NCBI RefSeq assembly: GCF_943371255.1 | Contig: NZ_CALRUC010000002.1 | Location: 27,086-91,085, forward strand | DNA from: Ferrovibrio terrae | Lineage (GTDB): Bacteria > Pseudomonadota > Alphaproteobacteria > Ferrovibrionales > Ferrovibrionaceae | Reading direction: 5' to 3' | DNA length: 64,000 nt | Shown: positions 12,439 to 62,115 of the stretch, piece after piece | Position numbering within the stretch: position 1 is the stretch's first letter | Layout: each line of letters starts with the position of its first letter | Position numbers and translations under genes: made by a program | The notes under the pieces: generated by a model | Databases searched by the model: none | The model's input: only the letters and a program-made list of their open reading frames with translations | What the model was told of the DNA's origin: nothing

Positions 12439-12476
12439 TCGACCATTTTCATCAAGACATTTCCTCAGCTGGCGTC

Positions 12477-12582
12477 GGCCGGCGGGGGTCGGGCTGCGCT
12501 AACAGCCCGAACCGCGAGGTGAGATCTCGCACGACCAAGACCGGCCTATCTGGGCCATCCCGCCACCCCTGCAGGGGCGGGA
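12477..12582 (+). promoter_or_regulatory. Structured leader upstream of com (multiple hairpins)
   Basis: TCGGGCTG-cgctaa-CAGCCCGA (12489-12510), GCGAG-N7-CTCGC (12514-12530), TCCCG..CCCC-tgca-GGGGCGGGA (12558-12582), closing GGCCGG/CCGGCC (12477-82/12541-46). Confidence 0.45.
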
Positions 12583-12603
12583 ATGTCATAGGGATCTCAA
12601 CAG

Positions 12604-12810
12604 GTGGAGTCTATTCGCTGCGGCCGCTGCGAGCGGTTGCTTTTCAAATCGACACCAGGCGCTGTCACAGGACGAATCGAAGTGAAGTGTTCTCGGTGCG
12701 GCAGCATCAATCAGATCAGGGCCGCGAGCCCATCACCGGAACGCCAGCGAGCGTCATTCATAGAGGAAACTATGATGACCAACGCAAACGACTCGGGGAG
12801 CGTAAAGTGA
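12604..12810 (+). CDS. com: Mu Com-family zinc-finger regulator
   Basis: IRCGRCERLLFK...IEVKCSRCGSINQ (CxxC...CxxC); position at Mu com locus. Confidence 0.85.
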   Translation: MESIRCGRCERLLFKSTPGAVTGRIEVKCSRCGSINQIRAASPSPERQRASFIEETMMTNANDSGSVK

Positions 12811-13718
12811 ATGTGGCTTTATCTCCCTTCAACGGCCTTGCGCTCTGTGCCGGCGGCGGCGGCCTCGAACTTGGCATCCATATTGCCGAACCCGAATATC
12901 GAACTGTTTGTTACGTTGAGCGGGAAGCCTACGCTGCAGCCGCTCTCGTGGCACGGATGGAAGACAAGGCGCTATCTGACGCGCCTGTCTGGAGTGACGT
13001 TACCAGCTTCAACGGCCGTCCGTGGCGCGGCGTCGTGGATATCCTCTCTGCGGGTTACCCGTGCCAGCCTTTCAGCTCGGCCGGCAAGAAACTCGGCACG
13101 GCGGATCCGCGCCACCTCTGGCCGCATGTCGCCAGGATCGTCCGTGAGATTGAGCCGGAATGGCTCTTCCTCGAAAATGTCCCGCACCATCTCCGCGTCG
13201 GATTTCCCGTGGTCGCAAACGACCTACGAGAAATGGGCTACCGGTTTGTGGCGGGCCTGTTCTCTGCGCGAGAAGCGGGTGCTGCACATTTCCGGCGGCG
13301 ACTCTTCGTACTGGCCCACGCCGACCGCGAGCAATGCCGGCGATTGGCCTCAAGTGCGTGTGGGCGCCACGATGCAGTTTTGCGATCCGCCGAACGGAAA
13401 CCAATTCGCGCTGCCAATGGCCGCGCGGATCTGGTGTCTGTGGTGGGATATGATCGTCGCAACCGTCGGCGTGCGCGCTATCGCGCAACGTCCGGCGAGC
13501 TGCCTGTCTATGCCCCTGGTCCAGGTGCTCTTGAAGCCTGGGCGCACATCATCGGAAGCGATCCCAGTCTTAAACCCGCGCTTTGGCGAGATGCTGATGG
13601 GCTGGCCGACTGGGTGGACCGCAACCGAGTCGTCGGTAACGGAGTTTCATCGGTGGCTGCGGCTTTCGCGTTCTGTACTCTCAAAGCTGAACTCTTTGCG
13701 GATGGATCTGCATCGTGA
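12807..13718 (+). CDS. DNA (cytosine-5) methyltransferase, alpha chain (lacks motif IX)
   Basis: GTG start overlapping com stop (GTGA), RBS GGGGAG; motifs I LCAGGGG, II VERE, IV GYPCQPFS, VI ENV, VIII HFRRRLFVLA, X GNGV. Confidence 0.88.
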   Translation: MNVALSPFNGLALCAGGGGLELGIHIAEPEYRTVCYVEREAYAAAALVARMEDKALSDAPVWSDVTSFNGRPWRGVVDILSAGYPCQPFSSAGKKLGTADPRHLWPHVARIVREIEPEWLFLENVPHHLRVGFPVVANDLREMGYRFVAGLFSAREAGAAHFRRRLFVLAHADREQCRRLASSACGRHDAVLRSAERKPIRAANGRADLVSVVGYDRRNRRRARYRATSGELPVYAPGPGALEAWAHIIGSDPSLKPALWRDADGLADWVDRNRVVGNGVSSVAAAFAFCTLKAELFADGSAS

Positions 13719-13773
13719 GGGTGAAAACCGCGATGTACCCGGCAATAATGCGGGCATCGAATCGGGGGAATGA
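12811..13773 (+). CDS. Overlapping +1-frame ORF: putative beta chain of the C5-methyltransferase (supplies motif IX)
   Basis: 320 codons open; WPTPTA (from 13312) and LNPRFGEMLMGWPTGWT (13570-13620) resemble TRD/motif IX segments; starts right after com stop and ends right before next ATG. Confidence 0.7.
   Translation: MWLYLPSTALRSVPAAAASNLASILPNPNIELFVTLSGKPTLQPLSWHGWKTRRYLTRLSGVTLPASTAVRGAASWISSLRVTRASLSARPARNSARRIRATSGRMSPGSSVRLSRNGSSSKMSRTISASDFPWSQTTYEKWATGLWRACSLREKRVLHISGGDSSYWPTPTASNAGDWPQVRVGATMQFCDPPNGNQFALPMAARIWCLWWDMIVATVGVRAIAQRPASCLSMPLVQVLLKPGRTSSEAIPVLNPRFGEMLMGWPTGWTATESSVTEFHRWLRLSRSVLSKLNSLRMDLHREGENRDVPGNNAGIESGE
13721..13749 (+). promoter_or_regulatory. Possible sigma70-type promoter for the GNAT-like gene
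   Basis: GTGAAA-N17-AATAAT upstream of RBS GGGGGA and ATG 13774. Confidence 0.3.
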
Positions 13774-14475
13774 ATGAACATCGCGCGCCAGATCGATCGG
13801 CACGCCGCGGCGATTGTTGCGGCGCTTGCCGAAGGCGGGTTCAAGGCTCATTTGAACGATGACCCGAAAGCCTATGCCGACTATGTCGGCACGGTGCCGG
13901 GTTACAGCCTGACCTCTCCGCTCGATCTGGCGTTTGTCGATGTGCGCGAGAAATTCATCTGGCTTCGCGTCACAGATAGCGCCGGCAATCTCGTCGCCAT
14001 CGAGGCTGGCCGTTATCTCAAAGCACCGACGCTCACCGGCGGCCTGAATCGCCTGCTGAAATCCCGGCGCTTCTTCGGTGAGCATCGCCCGACATTGCCT
14101 GTCGTCACGACGCTGCCGGCAATCAACCTCAGCGGCGACCTGGGCTACATGGGTGGCGGCTTCGTTGCCAAGGAGCATCGGGACCGCGGCGTCATGAGCC
14201 TCACGGCGCAGCTGACGATGCTACATCTCATGCGGCTGTTTCCCATCGATCATCTGTTCGGCCTGGTCAAAGCGCAGCACGTTGCGCGATCGCTGCGGCT
14301 GCAGGGTTATGGGTTCACTTCTGCGACTGCAGTGCGTTGGGCTTACTGGGCCGATTCGGCAGCGCCGGAGACCCTCTTCATGGTGCATGTTGACCGTGCG
14401 GCACTCATTGATCGTGTGGATGAACAGCCACATTACGCGCTCAAGAAATCCACGATCGTAGAAGGTAAAGTCTAG
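13774..14475 (+). CDS. Orphan GNAT/acyl-CoA N-acyltransferase-fold protein
   Basis: 233 aa; GGGFVAKEHRDRGVMSL resembles GNAT motif A (V.xxxR..G); FIWLRVTD.AG..VA..AGR and FGLV strands. Confidence 0.5.
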   Translation: MNIARQIDRHAAAIVAALAEGGFKAHLNDDPKAYADYVGTVPGYSLTSPLDLAFVDVREKFIWLRVTDSAGNLVAIEAGRYLKAPTLTGGLNRLLKSRRFFGEHRPTLPVVTTLPAINLSGDLGYMGGGFVAKEHRDRGVMSLTAQLTMLHLMRLFPIDHLFGLVKAQHVARSLRLQGYGFTSATAVRWAYWADSAAPETLFMVHVDRAALIDRVDEQPHYALKKSTIVEGKV

Positions 14476-14510
14476 CTTTCGATTTGCCAGCTCGCCTTAA
14501 GCATGAGTCG

Positions 14511-14538
14511 TTGACAGAGAACCACCACCGAGGATAAT
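14511..14538 (+). promoter_or_regulatory. Near-consensus sigma70 promoter for the HTH/PAS gene
   Basis: TTGACA (14511-16)-N16-GATAAT (14533-38), then RBS-like GAGAGGA and ATG 14569. Confidence 0.6.
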
Positions 14539-14568
14539 TCCGCTCTACCGAGAGGATATATCCGCGCC

Positions 14569-15276
14569 ATGACGACAGGTTGCAGTGGTAGTAGCGATGA
14601 AAGGGACGCCCTGAAGGATTTTGGGGCTCGATTCAAAGCTGCATTCGACCATCGCGTGAGCCTAGCGGGCCTGGATCAGAAGGATGTCGCCGCGGCGATC
14701 AAGAAGCATCCTTCGACGCTTCGGGCACATCGGGCCGGCGAGAACCCGATGAGCTACTTAGATCTGGAAGCCTATGACGACTATTTCGCAGCGATCGGCC
14801 AGCCTGGTCTGATCGATGACGTTCGGCAGCAGCGAAACTGGACTGCCTATGCCGAACAGCTGCAGAGCGTTTCTGAATATGGGCCAGCGCAGCGGCTGAT
14901 GGAATGCGCGCCTGGCCTGCGGTCGGCCGGCGGTGCGATCGAGGAGTTTTTAGCCGAGCAGGGCCTGCTGCCATACGTGCATATCATGGTGGCAGCTGAT
15001 GGTGCCGTGAGGACGAGCGCGATCGGCTCGAAGATGCCGACCGCCAGGGCGCTCGATCCTAGCATCAAGATGCGTGACGTCCGGAACCTCAGCGACCGGG
15101 CGTATGGTCAATTCCTGCACCGCCAGGTGCATGAGCTGCTGCAGGATGGCAGGGACGTTGTGCAGCATATTTCGGCGCCTTCGATGAGCTATTACAGGCT
15201 CGGCGTGCCGGTGGGAAACTTCCTGGTCGCCGTGACGTTCGGCGCCCAGGTCATTCCGTCTTACAAGTTGGGTTGA
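14569..15276 (+). CDS. XRE-type HTH protein with C-terminal PAS-like (PAS_5-like) domain
   Basis: LDQKDVAAAIKKHPSTLRAHRAGENP HTH; C-terminal LLPYVHIM...VRTSAIGS...SYYRLGVPV pattern. Confidence 0.55.
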   Translation: MTTGCSGSSDERDALKDFGARFKAAFDHRVSLAGLDQKDVAAAIKKHPSTLRAHRAGENPMSYLDLEAYDDYFAAIGQPGLIDDVRQQRNWTAYAEQLQSVSEYGPAQRLMECAPGLRSAGGAIEEFLAEQGLLPYVHIMVAADGAVRTSAIGSKMPTARALDPSIKMRDVRNLSDRAYGQFLHRQVHELLQDGRDVVQHISAPSMSYYRLGVPVGNFLVAVTFGAQVIPSYKLG

Positions 15277-15303
15277 GTCAGGCAAGCAAAAGGGGTCGGT
15301 TTA

Positions 15304-15465
15304 ATGGGTAAGGAAGCAGGATTTCAGGCGGGCAGCGACAAGCCGGATCGGGCGACGGCTCTTAAGCCGTCCATGGAGAAGGCAAAGGTGAAGCCCAGAA
15401 CCGAGATCTTAAAGATCAAGCGCGGGCGGCTCTCGGTCGAGCTGCGGATCAGCGGCGAAGATTGA
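15304..15465 (+). CDS. Small basic hypothetical protein (53 aa; not in supplied ORF track)
   Basis: AGGGG RBS 8 nt before ATG; MGKEAGFQAGSDKPDRATALKPSMEKAKVKPRTEILKIKRGRLSVELRISGED*. Confidence 0.4.
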   Translation: MGKEAGFQAGSDKPDRATALKPSMEKAKVKPRTEILKIKRGRLSVELRISGED

Positions 15466-15467
15466 TG

Positions 15468-16007
15468 TCACTGATCGATAAATTCGTCGGCCACGGGCAG
15501 CCGGTTGGGTGTGATCAGAATCCGGCCCAAACCCTTCCGCCTGCACTGCTGGCAGCGCGCTGCCCGCTCGGCGGCGATCAGGGTCATATTGCCCTTGCCG
15601 GCAGCGACCAGGGCGGGCAGGTCAAGCTCGGCCCGGTGACGGCACAGATTGCCGTGCGGCGGCAGGGGCGCGAGGCAGTGAACCGAGGCCTTATCGCCCC
15701 GGCTGTGGTGATAGCCCAGCGTGGGCGCCCTGCGGTCCTTCCGGTAGAAGGTTTCCTCGGGCGTTTCCGGGCGCCTGGTGATGACAAAATCGAGGCCCTT
15801 GGCGTTGCAGGCAGGGCAACGCAGCAGAGGGCCGATTTCCTCCAGCGGCGTCTTGTCGCCGTGCAGGACAGCCAGGCGCAGCGGCTGCAGCTCTCTCTGG
15901 TGCCCGAAACGGCACCGGCCGAAGAGTTTGACGCCGCCGCGGCTGACGCCGATCGGGGTGGTAAGGTCGGGCGGTGGAGAGCGTCGAACGGGCTGCATTT
16001 GTTCCAT
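15468..16007 (-). CDS. Tandem zinc-ribbon protein (two C..H...C..C units)
   Basis: RCRFGH...LRCPACNAKG and HC...CRH...RCQQCRRKG internal duplication; probable start ATG 16007. Confidence 0.55.
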   Translation of the reverse strand: MEQMQPVRRSPPPDLTTPIGVSRGGVKLFGRCRFGHQRELQPLRLAVLHGDKTPLEEIGPLLRCPACNAKGLDFVITRRPETPEETFYRKDRRAPTLGYHHSRGDKASVHCLAPLPPHGNLCRHRAELDLPALVAAGKGNMTLIAAERAARCQQCRRKGLGRILITPNRLPVADEFIDQ

Positions 16008-16082
16008 TGATTCCCGGCTTGAAGCCGGGGCGCAATAGAGCAACCGTTAAAGGCCGTTTGAGGCTTGTGGGTAAATCTGAGG

Positions 16083-16158
16083 AAATGTCTCGGAAATGGG
16101 CGATAAATGGAGTCCGAAATCAAATGTCGCGGAATCCGAAATTTTGCGGCGCGCTACA
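16083..16158. repeat. Mu-like right end with repeated transposase-binding-like sites
   Basis: AAATGTC(T/G)CGGAA at 16083 and 16122; TCCGAAAT at 16113 and 16135 (22-bp spacing); terminal CA at 16157-16158. Confidence 0.7.
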
Positions 16159-17044
16159 TTCAGCCCCTCAACCGCAGCCCGGCCATGATTGGGAAGCGCG
16201 TCTGCCCGCGCCCGACCTGCTGCGCCAGGCCTATGCGCGGGATGGCTATGCGATCATCCGTGGACTGTTTTCCCCGGCCGAGGTGGCCGCCATGGCCGGG
16301 GCCTTCGACCGCCTGCAGGCCTCCGGCCTGGCGCTCGGTCGCAGTTTCCGCCATGGCAATCTGCTGTTCCGGCTGGGCGACGACCCGCATCTGGGCCGCA
16401 TCCTGCGCATGGTGCAGTGGCCGTCCTGGCGCGATGCCCTGCTGGACCGCGTGCGGCTCGATCCCCGTTTCGTGGCCGTGCTGAAACCCCTGATCGGCGA
16501 CAACCTCAAGCAGATCATCAACCAGATGCACTGGAAGCCGCCGGGCGCGGCGAAAGTGGAATTCGCCTATCACCAGGACAGCCGTTTCCGCCGGCCGGCC
16601 GAGGCCTTCCGCGATCTGGCCGGCTCTTATGTGCAGACCGGCATCGCCATCGACGCGCATACAAGGGCCAGCGGCGCCATGAAGGTGATCCCGGGCAGCC
16701 ATCTGCTCGGCAACCTCGATCTCGGCGGCGACGGTCCGATCCTGCAGCAGACGATGCAGGATGCGGCCCTGCAGGCGGTCGGCCTCGATCCGGCCGCGGC
16801 AGTCGATCTCGAACTGGCGCCCGGCGATCTGGCGCTGTGGTCGCCCTTCCTGGTGCATGGTTCGGGGATCAACAGCACGGCTGCCGACCGCCGGCTCTAT
16901 ATCAACGGTTATGTCACAGCTGAAAACTGTGATCGCGGCGAATGGGCTTTTCGCGCCGGCCAGCCGCAACGGCTCGGTGTCGAACCCGTTCTGGTGCATT
17001 ACGAAGCCCTGCACGAAAAGCCCGAGCCGCATTTCGTTGAGTGA
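16124..17044 (+). CDS. Phytanoyl-CoA dioxygenase (PhyH) family Fe/2OG enzyme; 5' end apparently interrupted by prophage
   Basis: AYARDGY, HWKPPG...YHQD, G.MKVIPGSH, PGD...W...LVHGS...R motifs; the only nearby in-frame ATG (16124) lies inside the phage end. Confidence 0.75.
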   Translation: MSRNPKFCGALHSAPQPQPGHDWEARLPAPDLLRQAYARDGYAIIRGLFSPAEVAAMAGAFDRLQASGLALGRSFRHGNLLFRLGDDPHLGRILRMVQWPSWRDALLDRVRLDPRFVAVLKPLIGDNLKQIINQMHWKPPGAAKVEFAYHQDSRFRRPAEAFRDLAGSYVQTGIAIDAHTRASGAMKVIPGSHLLGNLDLGGDGPILQQTMQDAALQAVGLDPAAAVDLELAPGDLALWSPFLVHGSGINSTAADRRLYINGYVTAENCDRGEWAFRAGQPQRLGVEPVLVHYEALHEKPEPHFVE

Positions 17045-60921: not shown

Positions 60922-62115
60922 TTATTTAAAGCGATCAGCATTTTCACTGCAGAACAAGCGAACTCTTTCAAGCCAGTTTTCATACCACCACCAGTCTTTG
61001 TCTCGCAAAAATACGCCATATGCGTGTTTTGCATTGCGAGCGCCCAATTCTTGCCAGAGCTCGGTGTGGTCTTGCATTGAGAATTTCTTGTAACCATCAC
61101 TTCGAATAATTTTTATTATCTCTTTGGGTTTGTATTTTTTCTTCTCGGTTTCTTTAAGAAGAATTCTCTGAATGTCCTGCCCCTCTGTGGTGTCAGCTTT
61201 AACAAACTCTACCAATTGATCGGCTTTACCTCTTGTATTCGCGGTTTTCTGGATTAAGGCAACTCTGTATGAGTATCTGCTATCACTAAGAATAGAATCT
61301 TGAATTCTGTCTTCAAACGCCTGTTGGGCCGCCAAGAAATTTTTTGGAAGGTTAGTTTCCTTTAGGAGGAGATTGCGTTGTTCTGTCTCGATGGCGGAAA
61401 ACTGTAAGGCGACGCCGAAATCTGATTCTAATCCATATCGGTCGCCAACAAGATTCTTGTAGTAAGTGTTGAAGTTCAAGCAGCACGCTTGCAGTTTTGC
61501 ACTAATTGAAGAATCAATCCTTTGAGTCATTTGATGTTCGATTTCATGCCTAACTTCAATAATAAACTTTAAATTTGAACTTGTAGCTTCATCTAAAGGG
61601 CACTTGTCAGAGCTCAAGCAGGCTTCTAATTCCCAATGTTTGTCTGCTCCGTGTTTTGTCTTGAGGGGCTCATTGGTGCCCTTCTTCATGTGCCTATAGT
61701 CAATACCAATTTGCTTGTAATGCCAGTGAAGTAAGTAGGTCCATGCAATTACGGCGGTGACAATAAAGATTTCAGATTTGAAGTATGTTTTTGGACTGTT
61801 ATAGCTCTGGACTGCGTGAAGCATCGCTTCTCGTGATTTAATGAGGAGTTCATCTCCCCGGATATGTAATCCCGTGGAAAAGTCTATTTGAGGCCAAGAT
61901 GCGCGGAAATTTTCCAGCTCTTCCGAGCTGGCGGCAGCCACATTCTTGTGCTTCTCGCCTGATCTAATTTCCTTTATCCGCCCGTGATTGATAGAACGTG
62001 TTGGGCGTGTAAAGTAAGCAAGTATGTCTTGGTCGTTTAGGTTGTTCTCATCAATCATCGCCTTGATGATCGAAACTTCCCACCGTTCTAGTTTGTTTTG
62101 TTTGTTTCTTTTCAT
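60922..62115 (-). CDS. DUF3644/HEPN-like protein on a low-GC insert (candidate defence gene)
   Basis: Markedly AT-rich versus flanks; KSREAML.A...YN.P...FKSE.F...AWTYLLH; RHEIEH (Rx4H) motif. Confidence 0.7.
   Translation of the reverse strand: MKRNKQNKLERWEVSIIKAMIDENNLNDQDILAYFTRPTRSINHGRIKEIRSGEKHKNVAAASSEELENFRASWPQIDFSTGLHIRGDELLIKSREAMLHAVQSYNSPKTYFKSEIFIVTAVIAWTYLLHWHYKQIGIDYRHMKKGTNEPLKTKHGADKHWELEACLSSDKCPLDEATSSNLKFIIEVRHEIEHQMTQRIDSSISAKLQACCLNFNTYYKNLVGDRYGLESDFGVALQFSAIETEQRNLLLKETNLPKNFLAAQQAFEDRIQDSILSDSRYSYRVALIQKTANTRGKADQLVEFVKADTTEGQDIQRILLKETEKKKYKPKEIIKIIRSDGYKKFSMQDHTELWQELGARNAKHAYGVFLRDKDWWWYENWLERVRLFCSENADRFK

What the first reader, a model, noticed from the sequence alone, without database searches (positions are those of the whole stretch)
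12477..16007. Candidate new com-controlled accessory system replacing Mu mom
Established: in Mu the right-end locus is com-mom; Com is a zinc-finger translational activator and Mom a GNAT-fold adenine-modifying anti-restriction enzyme. Seen here: structured leader - com - two-chain C5-MTase - orphan GNAT-fold protein - HTH/PAS-like regulator - small ORF - convergent tandem zinc-ribbon gene - phage end. Inference 1: late, Com-gated DNA modification in which cytosine methylation, possibly combined with an acylation by the GNAT, protects progeny DNA. Inference 2: two separate modules, com/MTase for anti-restriction and GNAT + HTH-PAS for signalling. I do not recognise this gene combination as a described system.
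Basis: inference. Interest (0 to 1): 0.8.

Follow-up and report, generated by a model that had tools for sequence, protein, structure and literature searches.

The report
Stacked cargo modules at Mu-like prophage end
The last 3.7 kb of a Mu-like prophage holds two separable cargo modules: a Com-gated two-chain DNA cytosine methyltransferase of a known kind, and an unannotated cassette built around an acyltransferase-fold enzyme and its sensor-regulator, whose function is unknown.

Summary
It is two stacked modules, not one com-controlled system.

**Module 1** is a conserved structured leader, com, and a C5 methyltransferase. [quoted passage not shown] This is the known com-plus-methyltransferase replacement of mom, combined with the M.EcoHK31I-type two-chain layout. 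This scan has already found both on other DNA.

**Module 2** runs GNAT-fold enzyme, conserved sigma-70 promoter, XRE-HTH/PAS-like protein, small basic ORF, then usually a zinc-ribbon gene. It matches no Pfam, NCBIfam, PHROG or PADLOC family. It recurs in eight distinct prophage loci, always directly behind a DNA methyltransferase, but that enzyme comes from three unrelated families and com is present in only two loci.

The GNAT is not Mom-like. Distant chromosomal paralogues of it sit next to proteins carrying the same PAS-like domain, mostly tail-to-tail, with no methyltransferase seen beside the three inspected. The enzyme-sensor pair is therefore the conserved unit.

The function is unknown. 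My preferred reading, at about 0.3, is a producer and receptor of a small molecule. Toxin-antitoxin and anti-defence readings remain open.

The parts
12478..12603 (+). Structured non-coding leader upstream of com (about four hairpins)
   Evidence: Conserved in window, L001 and L009 with compensatory pair changes. MFE -70.8 kcal/mol, z -2.07. No Rfam family.
12604..12810 (+). com: Mu-type zinc-finger translational activator homologue (68 aa)
   Evidence: Pfam PF10122 E 5.3e-13. phrog_6417 and phrog_13819. 47% identity to the N-terminus of Mu Com. Its TGA stop overlaps the alpha start (GTGA) and abuts the beta ATG.
12795..12828 (+). Predicted hairpin hiding the Shine-Dalgarno (GGGGAG) and holding the overlapping beta AUG and alpha GUG in its loop (TIS-like)
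   Evidence: RNA fold. An equivalent hairpin is predicted in L009, and the start lies in a stem in L001 and L008. Prediction only.
12807..13718 (+). C5 methyltransferase alpha chain (303 aa; motifs I-VIII and X)
   Evidence: Pfam DNA_methylase E 2e-29 on the N-terminal half. phrog_363 full length, E 1.3e-51. 46% identical to a Desulfovibrio homologue over residues 2-297.
12811..13773 (+). Beta chain: 320-codon +1 frame covering the whole alpha gene (WPTPT TRD-like segment and NPxFxExLMGWPTGWT motif IX-like segment)
   Evidence: 49 database homologues of 260-550 aa (most 280-330), none of the ten long ones scanned hitting Pfam. Open in 7 of 7 related loci with GC 0.50-0.67. The longest +1 open run exceeds synonymous-codon permutations, P 0.0001-0.02 per locus. 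More conserved than alpha at codons 166-180 and 256-270.
13774..14475 (+). GNAT-fold acyltransferase-like protein (233 aa); its ATG directly follows the beta stop
   Evidence: AlphaFold pLDDT 94.2. 160 PDB hits, the top 50 listed all GNAT-fold or LuxI/FeeM-type, at E <= 1e-3, top NatF, BjaI, AANAT and FeeM. 12 of 74 family members weakly hit Pfam Acetyltransf_1. Not Mom-like.
14511..14538 (+). Sigma-70-type promoter of the partner gene (TTGACA-16-GATAAT)
   Evidence: 11 of 12 consensus matches. A TTGAC[AT]-N17-(G)ATAAT-like sequence stands at the same place in all 8 cassette loci.
14569..15276 (+). Partner: XRE/C-protein-like HTH fused to a PAS-like sensor domain (235 aa)
   Evidence: Model pLDDT 79.5. 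Foldseek hits C.BclI, C.AhdI and ClgR for the HTH (probability 1.0) and PAS domains 3fc7 and 3fg8. The C-terminal domain is homologous to the neighbours of the chromosomal GNAT paralogues: hhalign probability 91%, E 1.2e-6. Two of 8 of those neighbours weakly hit Pfam PAS_5.
15304..15465 (+). Small basic protein (53 aa) ending in a V.VKV..G.V.I.IS-like segment
   Evidence: A counterpart follows the partner in every cassette locus; the profile matches window, L001 and L005, and the others were matched by eye.
15468..16007 (-). Convergent tandem zinc-ribbon-like protein (179 aa from the ATG at 16007; a TTG at 16043 is an alternative start)
   Evidence: The first unit is 40% and 36% identical to 86- and 81-aa proteins at the same place in L001 and L003. 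HMM hits in L001 and L003, and weakly in L005. The second unit resembles the L046 protein. No Pfam, NCBIfam or PADLOC hit.
16060..16158 (+). Mu-type right end (repeated GAAAT-containing sites, terminal ...GCGCTACA)
   Evidence: Sequence. Host flank and empty sites in relatives. An almost identical end in L006. MuA, MuB and GemA at the other end of the prophage.

Best explanation
The right end of this 39.7-kb Mu-like prophage carries two independent cargo modules placed one behind the other.

**Module 1 (12478-13773): a late, Com-gated DNA cytosine methyltransferase that takes the place of mom.**
- Shown: the com homologue is present.
- Shown: its stop overlaps the start region of the methyltransferase.
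- Shown: the methyltransferase DNA is read in two frames over its whole length. Alpha carries motifs I-VIII and X. Beta, in the +1 frame, carries the TRD-like and motif IX-like parts.
- Inferred: a predicted hairpin hides the ribosome-binding site and the overlapping AUG (beta) and GUG (alpha) starts. Com opens it, as in Mu. Alpha and beta assemble into one enzyme, as in M.EcoHK31I. The enzyme methylates progeny DNA against restriction.

**Module 2 (13774-16007): a conserved cassette whose core is an enzyme-sensor pair.**
- The GNAT-fold enzyme is abutted to the end of the late operon.
- The XRE-HTH/PAS-like partner and a small basic protein have their own conserved sigma-70 promoter, so they are probably made in the lysogen.
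- A zinc-ribbon gene reads back from the phage end.
- Shown: GNAT, partner and small ORF co-occur in 8 loci; the zinc-ribbon gene was found in 4, plus a weak match in a fifth.
- Shown: the pairing of this GNAT family with this PAS-like domain persists in distant chromosomal paralogues.
- Inferred, about 0.3 and the most likely single mechanism: the GNAT makes an acylated small molecule late in lytic growth, and the partner is its ligand-sensing DNA-binding receptor in lysogens. This is LuxI/LuxR-like in logic, not in ancestry.

The confidence figure below is for the two-module architecture, not for the signalling mechanism.
For: **Separability**
- com plus the alpha/beta methyltransferase occurs without the cassette in L008-L012; L049 has the alpha/beta gene without the cassette, com not checked there.
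- The cassette occurs behind N6_N4 or D12 methyltransferases, and without com in 5 loci.

**Module 1**
- com family membership.
- Alpha/beta conservation and the permutation test.
- M.EcoHK31I as precedent (PMC2836561).
- The com-methyltransferase precedent (PMC3299994).
- Predicted start-hiding hairpin and conserved leader.

**Module 2**
- GNAT fold.
- Partner fold.
- Partner promoter in 8 of 8 loci.
- The partner is found only beside the phage-clade GNAT.
- Chromosomal GNAT paralogues occur in 24 of 401 genomes of the window's own class, with 4 copies in this genome.
- A neighbour homologous to the partner's C-terminal domain (hhalign probability 91%) is present in 13 of 19 paralogue loci, 11 of them convergent. 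It is also present beside three own-genome paralogues, with an XRE-HTH gene beside one (Pfam HTH_3) and an HTH-like gene, read by eye, beside another.
- Convergent, overlapping synthase-receptor pairs are a known LuxI/LuxR topology (PMC3386692).
Against: - There are no expression or biochemical data.
- The GNAT is always directly behind a methyltransferase in the phage loci, with a gap of -4 to +52 nt. A functional link to DNA methylation therefore cannot be excluded.
- No member of the GNAT family hits the LuxI (Autoind_synth) or N-acyl amino acid synthase Pfam models.
- Fold matches to BjaI have low TM-scores (0.35). They are no better than matches to ordinary acetyltransferases.
- The PAS-like assignment rests on modest scores: Foldseek E about 0.1 and Pfam PAS_5 E 3e-4 in 2 of 8 relatives.
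- The motif IX assignment of beta is by pattern only. The beta profile finds no solved methyltransferase.
- The patchy, multi-copy distribution fits mobile toxin-antitoxin or defence genes as well.
Confidence: 0.62

Rival explanations
1. One integrated, Com-gated DNA hypermodification system. Cytosine methylation by alpha/beta and acylation by the GNAT act together on progeny DNA, with the GNAT as a functional analogue of Mom.
For: The GNAT ATG directly follows the beta stop in the com-gated operon. In 7 of the 8 cassette loci where the upstream gene is on the contig, the GNAT lies -4 to +52 nt behind a DNA methyltransferase. Mom itself has a GNAT-like fold and appears among the viral fold matches at rank 19.
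Against: There is no specific similarity to Mom (hhalign probability 1.2%). The methyltransferase partner switches between three unrelated families with different target bases. com is absent from 5 cassette loci. The GNAT's conserved evolutionary partner is the PAS-like protein. No methyltransferase was seen beside the three chromosomal paralogues inspected.
Confidence: 0.08
2. The GNAT and the HTH/PAS-like protein are a toxin-antitoxin or abortive-infection pair. The GNAT is a toxic acetyltransferase, for example of charged tRNA or another translation component. The partner neutralises it and represses transcription.
For: The pair is a tightly conserved two-gene unit. Its distribution is patchy, with several copies per genome (4 in this genome) and copies inside prophages. 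An XRE HTH fused to a second domain is a common antitoxin layout, and GNAT toxins are known (own knowledge). The partner has a constitutive-looking promoter.
Against: There is no similarity to known GNAT toxins or to DUF1778/RHH antitoxins. In the phage, the putative toxin sits in the late operon and would not be made in the lysogen, which defeats an addiction role. The chromosomal pairs are mostly convergent (11 of 13) rather than one operon.
Confidence: 0.2
3. An anti-defence island. The methyltransferase protects DNA from restriction. The GNAT acylates and disables a host defence protein, as the acetyltransferase anti-CRISPR AcrVA5 does. The HTH partner is an Aca-like regulator of the island.
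For: The cassette sits in the mom position, directly behind anti-restriction-type orphan methyltransferases in all phage loci, and is abutted to them. An HTH regulator follows immediately. The acetyltransferase anti-CRISPR and Aca regulators are precedents from my own knowledge.
Against: The paralogue pairs on ordinary chromosomal backgrounds, next to a transporter, chemoreceptor and hslVU, are hard to explain as anti-defence genes. Aca genes normally share the promoter of their acr gene, whereas this partner has its own. There is no PADLOC or PHROG annotation to lean on.
Confidence: 0.15

Closest known systems
Phage Mu com-mom operon
   Same: The module sits at the right end of a Mu-type transposable prophage. 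It has a Com zinc-finger homologue (47% identical at the N-terminus). The 3' end of com overlaps the start of the DNA-modification gene. A predicted hairpin hides that start.
   Different: The modification enzyme is a C5 methyltransferase, not Mom. The GNAT-fold protein downstream is not a Mom relative. The leader upstream of com is a multi-hairpin element not known from Mu. Com dependence is untested.
com-methyltransferase operons of FluMu, Pnme1 and Hia5 (Drozdz et al. 2012, PMC3299994)
   Same: com is followed by a conventional DNA methyltransferase at the mom position of a Mu-like prophage.
   Different: Those enzymes are single-chain N6-adenine methyltransferases. This one is a two-chain cytosine-5 enzyme, and further cargo follows it.
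M.EcoHK31I, a two-polypeptide C5 methyltransferase (Lee, Kam and Shaw 1995, as described in PMC2836561)
   Same: The alpha chain carries motifs I-VIII and X. A beta chain with a motif IX-like part is encoded in another frame of the same DNA.
   Different: Here beta spans the whole alpha gene (320 codons against 176), and its AUG overlaps the alpha GUG (ATGTG). It also seems to carry the TRD-like part. The gene is phage-borne and sits behind com. Sequence homology to M.EcoHK31I itself was not tested.
LuxI/LuxR acyl-homoserine-lactone circuits, convergent R2 topology (PMC3386692)
   Same: Both pair a GNAT-related-fold enzyme with a protein that joins an alpha/beta ligand-binding-type domain to an HTH. 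Chromosomal pairs are mostly tail-to-tail with overlapping 3' ends. The distribution is patchy and multi-copy in Alphaproteobacteria.
   Different: There is no sequence match to the LuxI or LuxR families. The HTH is XRE-type and N-terminal, or is a separate gene. No product is known. This is a resemblance of logic only.
GNAT/RHH type II toxin-antitoxin pairs (TacAT, AtaRT, KacAT; own knowledge)
   Same: A GNAT-fold enzyme is paired with a DNA-binding partner on mobile elements.
   Different: The GNAT here is larger (233 aa) and unrelated in sequence. The partner is XRE-HTH plus PAS-like, not RHH/DUF1778. Gene order and transcription units also differ.

Membership tests
Mu-type com-gated DNA-modification operon | Com zinc-finger protein encoded directly upstream | tested here: met
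   Pfam PF10122 E 5.3e-13. BLASTP to Mu Com: 47% identity over 32 aa, E 2e-8.
Mu-type com-gated DNA-modification operon | The 3' end of com overlaps or abuts the start of the modification gene, and the start is sequestered in an RNA hairpin | tested here: inconclusive
   The overlap is seen directly (GTGA). The hairpin is a thermodynamic prediction with some conservation in L009. The z-scores are not significant.
Mu-type com-gated DNA-modification operon | Translation of the modification gene depends on Com | not testable with these tools
   This needs reporter fusions with and without Com.
Mom (acetamido-adenine DNA modification enzyme) | Sequence or profile similarity to Mu Mom | tested here: not met
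   hhalign of the GNAT family profile against Mu Mom gives probability 1.2%. No PHROG or Pfam hit. Mom ranks only 19th in the viral fold search, E 2e-3.
M.EcoHK31I-type two-polypeptide C5 methyltransferase | Alpha chain with motifs I-VIII and X in one frame | tested here: met
   Pfam DNA_methylase model positions 2-165. phrog_363 full length. The GNGV motif X segment is conserved across loci.
M.EcoHK31I-type two-polypeptide C5 methyltransferase | Second polypeptide encoded in an alternative frame inside alpha | tested here: met
   The +1 frame is open in 7 of 7 loci. Permutation P is 0.0001-0.02 per locus. There are 49 homologous predicted proteins. Translation itself has not been shown.
M.EcoHK31I-type two-polypeptide C5 methyltransferase | Beta carries motif IX | tested here: inconclusive
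   The NPxFxExLMGWPTGWT pattern resembles motif IX, and it is the most conserved part of beta. No profile or solved structure confirms this.
M.EcoHK31I-type two-polypeptide C5 methyltransferase | Both chains are required for methylation | not testable with these tools
   This needs expression of alpha, of beta, and of both together, with methylation read-out.
GNAT superfamily | GNAT fold | tested here: met
   The model has pLDDT 94.2. There are 160 PDB hits at E <= 1e-3, the top 50 listed all GNAT-fold or LuxI/FeeM-type.
GNAT superfamily | Motif A (Q/R-x-x-G-x-G/A) for acyl-CoA binding | tested here: inconclusive
   The window has R-D-R-G-V-M. The wider family has R-G-x-G-L. The last position deviates, and CoA binding is untested.
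LuxI/LuxR quorum-sensing pair | Synthase belongs to the LuxI family (Pfam Autoind_synth) | tested here: not met
   None of 74 family members hits that model at E <= 0.01.
LuxI/LuxR quorum-sensing pair | Receptor with an N-terminal autoinducer-binding domain and a C-terminal LuxR-type HTH | tested here: not met
   The partner has an N-terminal XRE-type HTH and a C-terminal PAS-like domain. No Pfam hit.
GNAT/RHH type II toxin-antitoxin | DUF1778/RHH antitoxin adjacent to a TacT/AtaT-like GNAT | tested here: not met
   No Pfam or NCBIfam hit for either protein. The partner fold is XRE-HTH plus PAS-like.
Known anti-phage defence systems (PADLOC) | Any component matches a PADLOC model | tested here: not met
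   No hit at E <= 0.1 for the GNAT, partner, zinc-ribbon protein, beta or small ORF.

The most novel reading that the evidence does not exclude
The GNAT and the HTH/PAS-like protein would be a previously unrecognised family of small-molecule signal synthase and receptor. In the phage version, cells in late lytic growth would make and release the signal, and lysogens, which express the receptor from its own promoter, would sense it. That would be a small-molecule counterpart of peptide-based phage communication. Chromosomal tail-to-tail copies in Alphaproteobacteria would be the cellular version.
Probability: 0.25. Interest if true: 0.9.

Novelty: new variant of a known kind. Interest (0 to 1): 0.55.

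Why it matters
**Module 1.** It shows that the Mu com switch is used to gate a two-frame, two-chain cytosine methyltransferase. Standard annotation sees only one of the two genes. The overlapping AUG and GUG starts inside one regulated hairpin suggest how a single translational switch could release both subunits together.

**Module 2.** This is the part with real upside. It is a conserved enzyme-sensor pair without any family annotation. It is present in temperate phages of at least two tail types. It is also found in about 6% of sampled genomes of the window's class.

If the pair is a signalling, toxin-antitoxin or anti-defence system, it would define a new family. Its fixed position behind swappable methyltransferases marks the right end of these phages as a cargo slot worth mining.

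Tried and rejected
**Searches that found little**
- Close relatives of the methyltransferase in 60 related genomes: none. In viral contigs: none.
- With the narrow alignment it returned only copies of L001, plus L036 and L037.

**Family and structure look-ups**
- Rfam for the leader: nothing.
- NCBIfam and PADLOC for the cassette proteins: nothing.
- The beta profile against the PDB gave only chance hits to MS2 coat protein.
- The GNAT and partner profiles against PDB sequences gave nothing significant.
- The Mom-like reading of the GNAT was rejected.

**Prophage ends**
- Searching for the left end with the reverse complement of the right terminus failed. It was located instead through empty sites in relatives.

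**Unavailable or failed**
- The 1995 M.EcoHK31I paper is not held.

**A caution**
- I considered that the conserved 'MW.Y.P' start of beta proves translation from that AUG. I rejected it as proof, because the same bases also encode the C-terminus of com in some loci and form the predicted hairpin.

Full report
**1. What is there**

ORF listing and family scans give this order on the + strand:
- a 126-nt untranslated leader (12478-12603);
- com (12604-12810; Pfam Zn_ribbon_Com E 5.3e-13);
- a C5 methyltransferase (12807-13718);
- a 320-codon +1 frame laid over it (12811-13773);
- a 233-aa protein (13774-14475) and a 235-aa protein (14569-15276), neither with any family hit;
- a 53-aa ORF (15304-15465).

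A zinc-ribbon-like gene (15468-16007) lies on the other strand.

The element is a genuine Mu-type transposable prophage. At the far end of a 39.7-kb stretch (contig C2:3510-43243) lie a cI-like repressor, a MuA-type transposase (HTH_Tnp_Mu_1, rve, Mu-transpos_C), a MuB-like ATPase, DUF3164 and GemA. The right terminus is ...GCGCTACA at window position 16158. Every gene in the finding therefore lies inside the prophage.

**2. Module 1: leader, com and a two-frame methyltransferase**

*com.* The window Com is 47% identical to Mu Com over its first 32 residues. Its TGA stop overlaps the alpha start (GTGA) and is directly followed by the beta ATG. The beta ATG and an alpha GTG overlap as ATGTG.

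*Alpha.* It matches the phage family phrog_363 over its full length (E 1.3e-51) and a Desulfovibrio homologue over residues 2-297. It is a complete chain with motifs I-VIII and the GNGV motif X.

*Beta.*
- The +1 frame carries WPTPT and NPRFGEMLMGWPTGWT. In single-chain enzymes (from my own knowledge of the motifs) these mark the start of the target-recognition region and motif IX.
- In L008-L012 and in a Shinella replicon (L049) both frames are open over about 280-320 codons, at GC from 0.50 to 0.67. The third frame has 8-20 stops.
- I permuted synonymous alpha codons, keeping the protein and the gene's own codon use. The observed +1 open run was reached with P of 0.0001 to 0.02 per locus.
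- Conservation swaps between frames. Alpha dominates codons 16-165 and 271-285. Beta is the better conserved frame at codons 166-180 and 256-270.
- 49 predicted proteins in public data are homologues of beta. None of the ten longer ones scanned hits a Pfam domain. In the four fetched loci (L009-L012) the gene caller chose the beta frame and missed the methyltransferase.

*Precedent.* This is the layout of M.EcoHK31I, whose beta chain lies entirely in another frame of alpha and carries motif IX (PMC2836561). Here it extends over the whole gene. Earlier agents of this scan reached the same conclusion on many other phages, so this part is not new to the scan.

*com linkage.* com stands upstream of the alpha/beta gene in 5 of 6 loci, and upstream of an N6_N4 methyltransferase in L001.

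*Leader and hairpin.*
- The leader upstream of com is conserved between window, L001 and L009, with compensatory changes in at least two hairpins. It has no Rfam family.
- A predicted hairpin (12795-12828) pairs the GGGGAG ribosome-binding site and holds both start codons in its loop. L009 has an equivalent.
- Com-dependent opening is inferred from Mu, not shown.

*Prior literature.* The replacement of mom by a methyltransferase behind com is published for FluMu, Pnme1 and Hia5 (PMC3299994). This scan has seen it repeatedly.

**3. Module 2: what the proteins are**

*The 233-aa protein.*
- It has only six homologues in the 5.8-billion-protein index.
- A profile search of 1.84 billion representatives gives 108 hits at E <= 1e-3, of which 14 are below 1e-10.
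- With that alignment, AlphaFold gives a confident model (pLDDT 94.2).
- Foldseek finds 160 PDB chains at E <= 1e-3; the 50 listed are all GNAT-fold or LuxI/FeeM-type enzymes. The top ones are NatF, the CoA-dependent AHL synthase BjaI, arylalkylamine N-acetyltransferases, SpeG and FeeM.
- Twelve of 74 family members weakly hit Pfam Acetyltransf_1.
- It is not Mom-like. Mom is rank 19 in the viral library, and the profile comparison with Mu Mom gives 1.2% probability.

*The 235-aa partner.*
- The model (pLDDT 79.5) has an N-terminal helical domain. It matches restriction-modification controller proteins and other XRE-type HTH proteins at probability 1.0.
- Its C-terminal alpha/beta domain matches PAS domains at modest scores.

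**4. Module 2: where else it occurs**

Eight distinct loci carry the cassette:

| Locus | Source | Methyltransferase |
|---|---|---|
| window | this genome | C5 alpha/beta, with com |
| L001 | alphaproteobacterial MAG, also in IMG/VR | N6_N4, with com |
| L003 | Ferrovibrio | D12 (Dam-type) |
| L005 | phage with a lambda-type gpJ tail | D12 |
| L006 | metagenome assembly (Logan, ERR3281036) | D12 |
| L036 | metagenome contig | D12 |
| L045 | Rhodocyclaceae MAG with Mu-type baseplate genes | D12 |
| L046 | short contig (1.7 kb) | upstream region not on contig |

In every locus the order is the same:
- tail-fibre genes (where the contig reaches that far);
- a DNA methyltransferase;
- the GNAT, 4 nt overlapping to 52 nt behind it;
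- the partner;
- a small basic ORF.

In L046 the contig starts inside the GNAT, so only the downstream part is seen.

A zinc-ribbon gene follows in four loci, with a weak match in a fifth.

Between the GNAT and the partner, all eight loci keep a TTGAC[AT]-N17-(G)ATAAT-like promoter and a GGAGG ribosome-binding site. The partner and the small ORF are therefore a separate transcription unit, probably active in the lysogen. The GNAT rides on the late operon.

None of the alpha/beta methyltransferase loci other than the window has the cassette. The modules are therefore separable.

The methyltransferase slot in front of the cassette is always filled. A looser functional link, such as a shared anti-restriction role, cannot be excluded.

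**5. The enzyme-sensor pair is older than the phage cassette**

- A profile of the phage-clade GNATs finds distant paralogues in 24 of 401 sampled genomes of the window's own class. Four copies are in this genome.
- The fused HTH/PAS partner is absent from those loci.
- In this genome each paralogue has a convergent neighbour. One (C89) has a Pfam-supported XRE-HTH gene upstream; another (C1) has an HTH-like gene upstream, read by eye.
- The neighbour family (alignment A9) is present in 13 of 19 paralogue loci fetched with only 1.5-kb flanks. Eleven of those are tail-to-tail, and several of those overlap at the 3' ends.
- The C-terminal domain of A9 is homologous to the C-terminal domain of the phage partner: hhalign probability 91%, E 1.2e-6.
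- Two of its 8 members weakly hit Pfam PAS_5.

The conserved functional unit is thus GNAT plus PAS-like protein, with an HTH either fused (phage) or encoded beside it. No methyltransferase was seen near the three chromosomal copies inspected in this genome. This is the strongest argument against the GNAT being a DNA-modification partner of the methyltransferase.

**6. How it most likely works**

*Module 1* (confidence about 0.8 that it is a Com-gated anti-restriction methyltransferase). Late transcription yields one mRNA. Com relieves a start-hiding hairpin. Ribosomes start at the AUG (beta) or the overlapping GUG (alpha). The two chains assemble and methylate progeny DNA.

*Module 2.* The function is unknown. 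These facts have to be explained:
- the enzyme is expressed late, while the sensor-regulator is expressed on its own;
- the enzyme-sensor pairing is deeply conserved;
- the chromosomal topology is convergent;
- the distribution is patchy and multi-copy.

A synthase-receptor pair fits all four. Its topology has a precedent in LuxI/LuxR (PMC3386692). But there is no sequence link to LuxI or N-acyl synthases, and the fold ranking does not discriminate.

| Reading | Probability | Main difficulty |
|---|---|---|
| Signal synthase and receptor | about 0.3 | no sequence link to known synthases |
| Toxin-antitoxin | about 0.2 | transcription layout does not suit it |
| Anti-defence effector plus regulator | about 0.15 | chromosomal copies are hard to explain |
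| Integrated DNA hypermodification | under 0.1 | GNAT is not Mom-like; methyltransferase family varies |

The remaining probability goes to functions I have not thought of.

**7. Verdict**

- two modules, not one system;
- com-methyltransferase is a known kind in a two-frame variant;
- the GNAT cassette is real, conserved and unannotated, and its function is open.

Noticed in passing
window 16159-16189 and contig C2:3479-3509 (left flank of the prophage; outside the window): The prophage is flanked by an imperfect 31-nt direct repeat (3 mismatches) from the 5' end of the host PhyH-type dioxygenase gene. This can also be read as a 5-bp CATGA duplication plus 26 host-like bases at one phage end. 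The native ATG and 17 codons of the gene lie on the far side of the prophage.
   Followed up: partly
L006:3560-3660: A related prophage in another genome ends with almost the same terminus (…GCCGGCGCGCTACA) 5 nt upstream of the ATG of the orthologous PhyH gene (74% identical protein). That is within about 30 nt of the insertion point here. This is unexpected for near-random Mu transposition.
   Followed up: partly
window 12455-12468 and 16077-16090: A perfect 14-nt inverted repeat (AGACATTTCCTCAG) brackets exactly the cargo region. The right arm lies among the GAAAT-type repeats of the Mu right end. There are no other copies in the 64-kb window, and 0.01 are expected by chance. It may be a relic internal end involved in cargo capture.
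   Followed up: partly
window 12604-14475: com, beta and the GNAT gene are in the same reading frame. They are separated only by single TGA codons, each directly followed by ATG (TGAATG twice). This suits termination-reinitiation coupling. Nothing indicates readthrough.
   Followed up: partly
own genome contigs C82:18695-20074, C1:51692-52853, C89:5063-7555: Three further GNAT paralogues lie in the same genome, each with a convergent PAS-like neighbour. The C1 copy lies among phage-type genes (by eye, a RecT-like and a Gp37/Gp68-like gene), so a second prophage may carry a version of the pair.
   Followed up: partly
L009-L012: In these public assemblies the gene caller annotated the beta frame, which has no Pfam domain, and omitted the methyltransferase alpha frame altogether. 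This illustrates how the two-frame gene is mis-annotated either way.
   Followed up: yes
window 61001-62000: There is a sharp drop in G+C to 0.42 against a background of about 0.64. It was not examined.
   Followed up: no
phage records KP296791, NC_028788 and relatives: Paenibacillus larvae phage cytosine methyltransferase matches lie under two annotated methyltransferase features ('x2'). This may be another split or two-gene arrangement.
   Followed up: no
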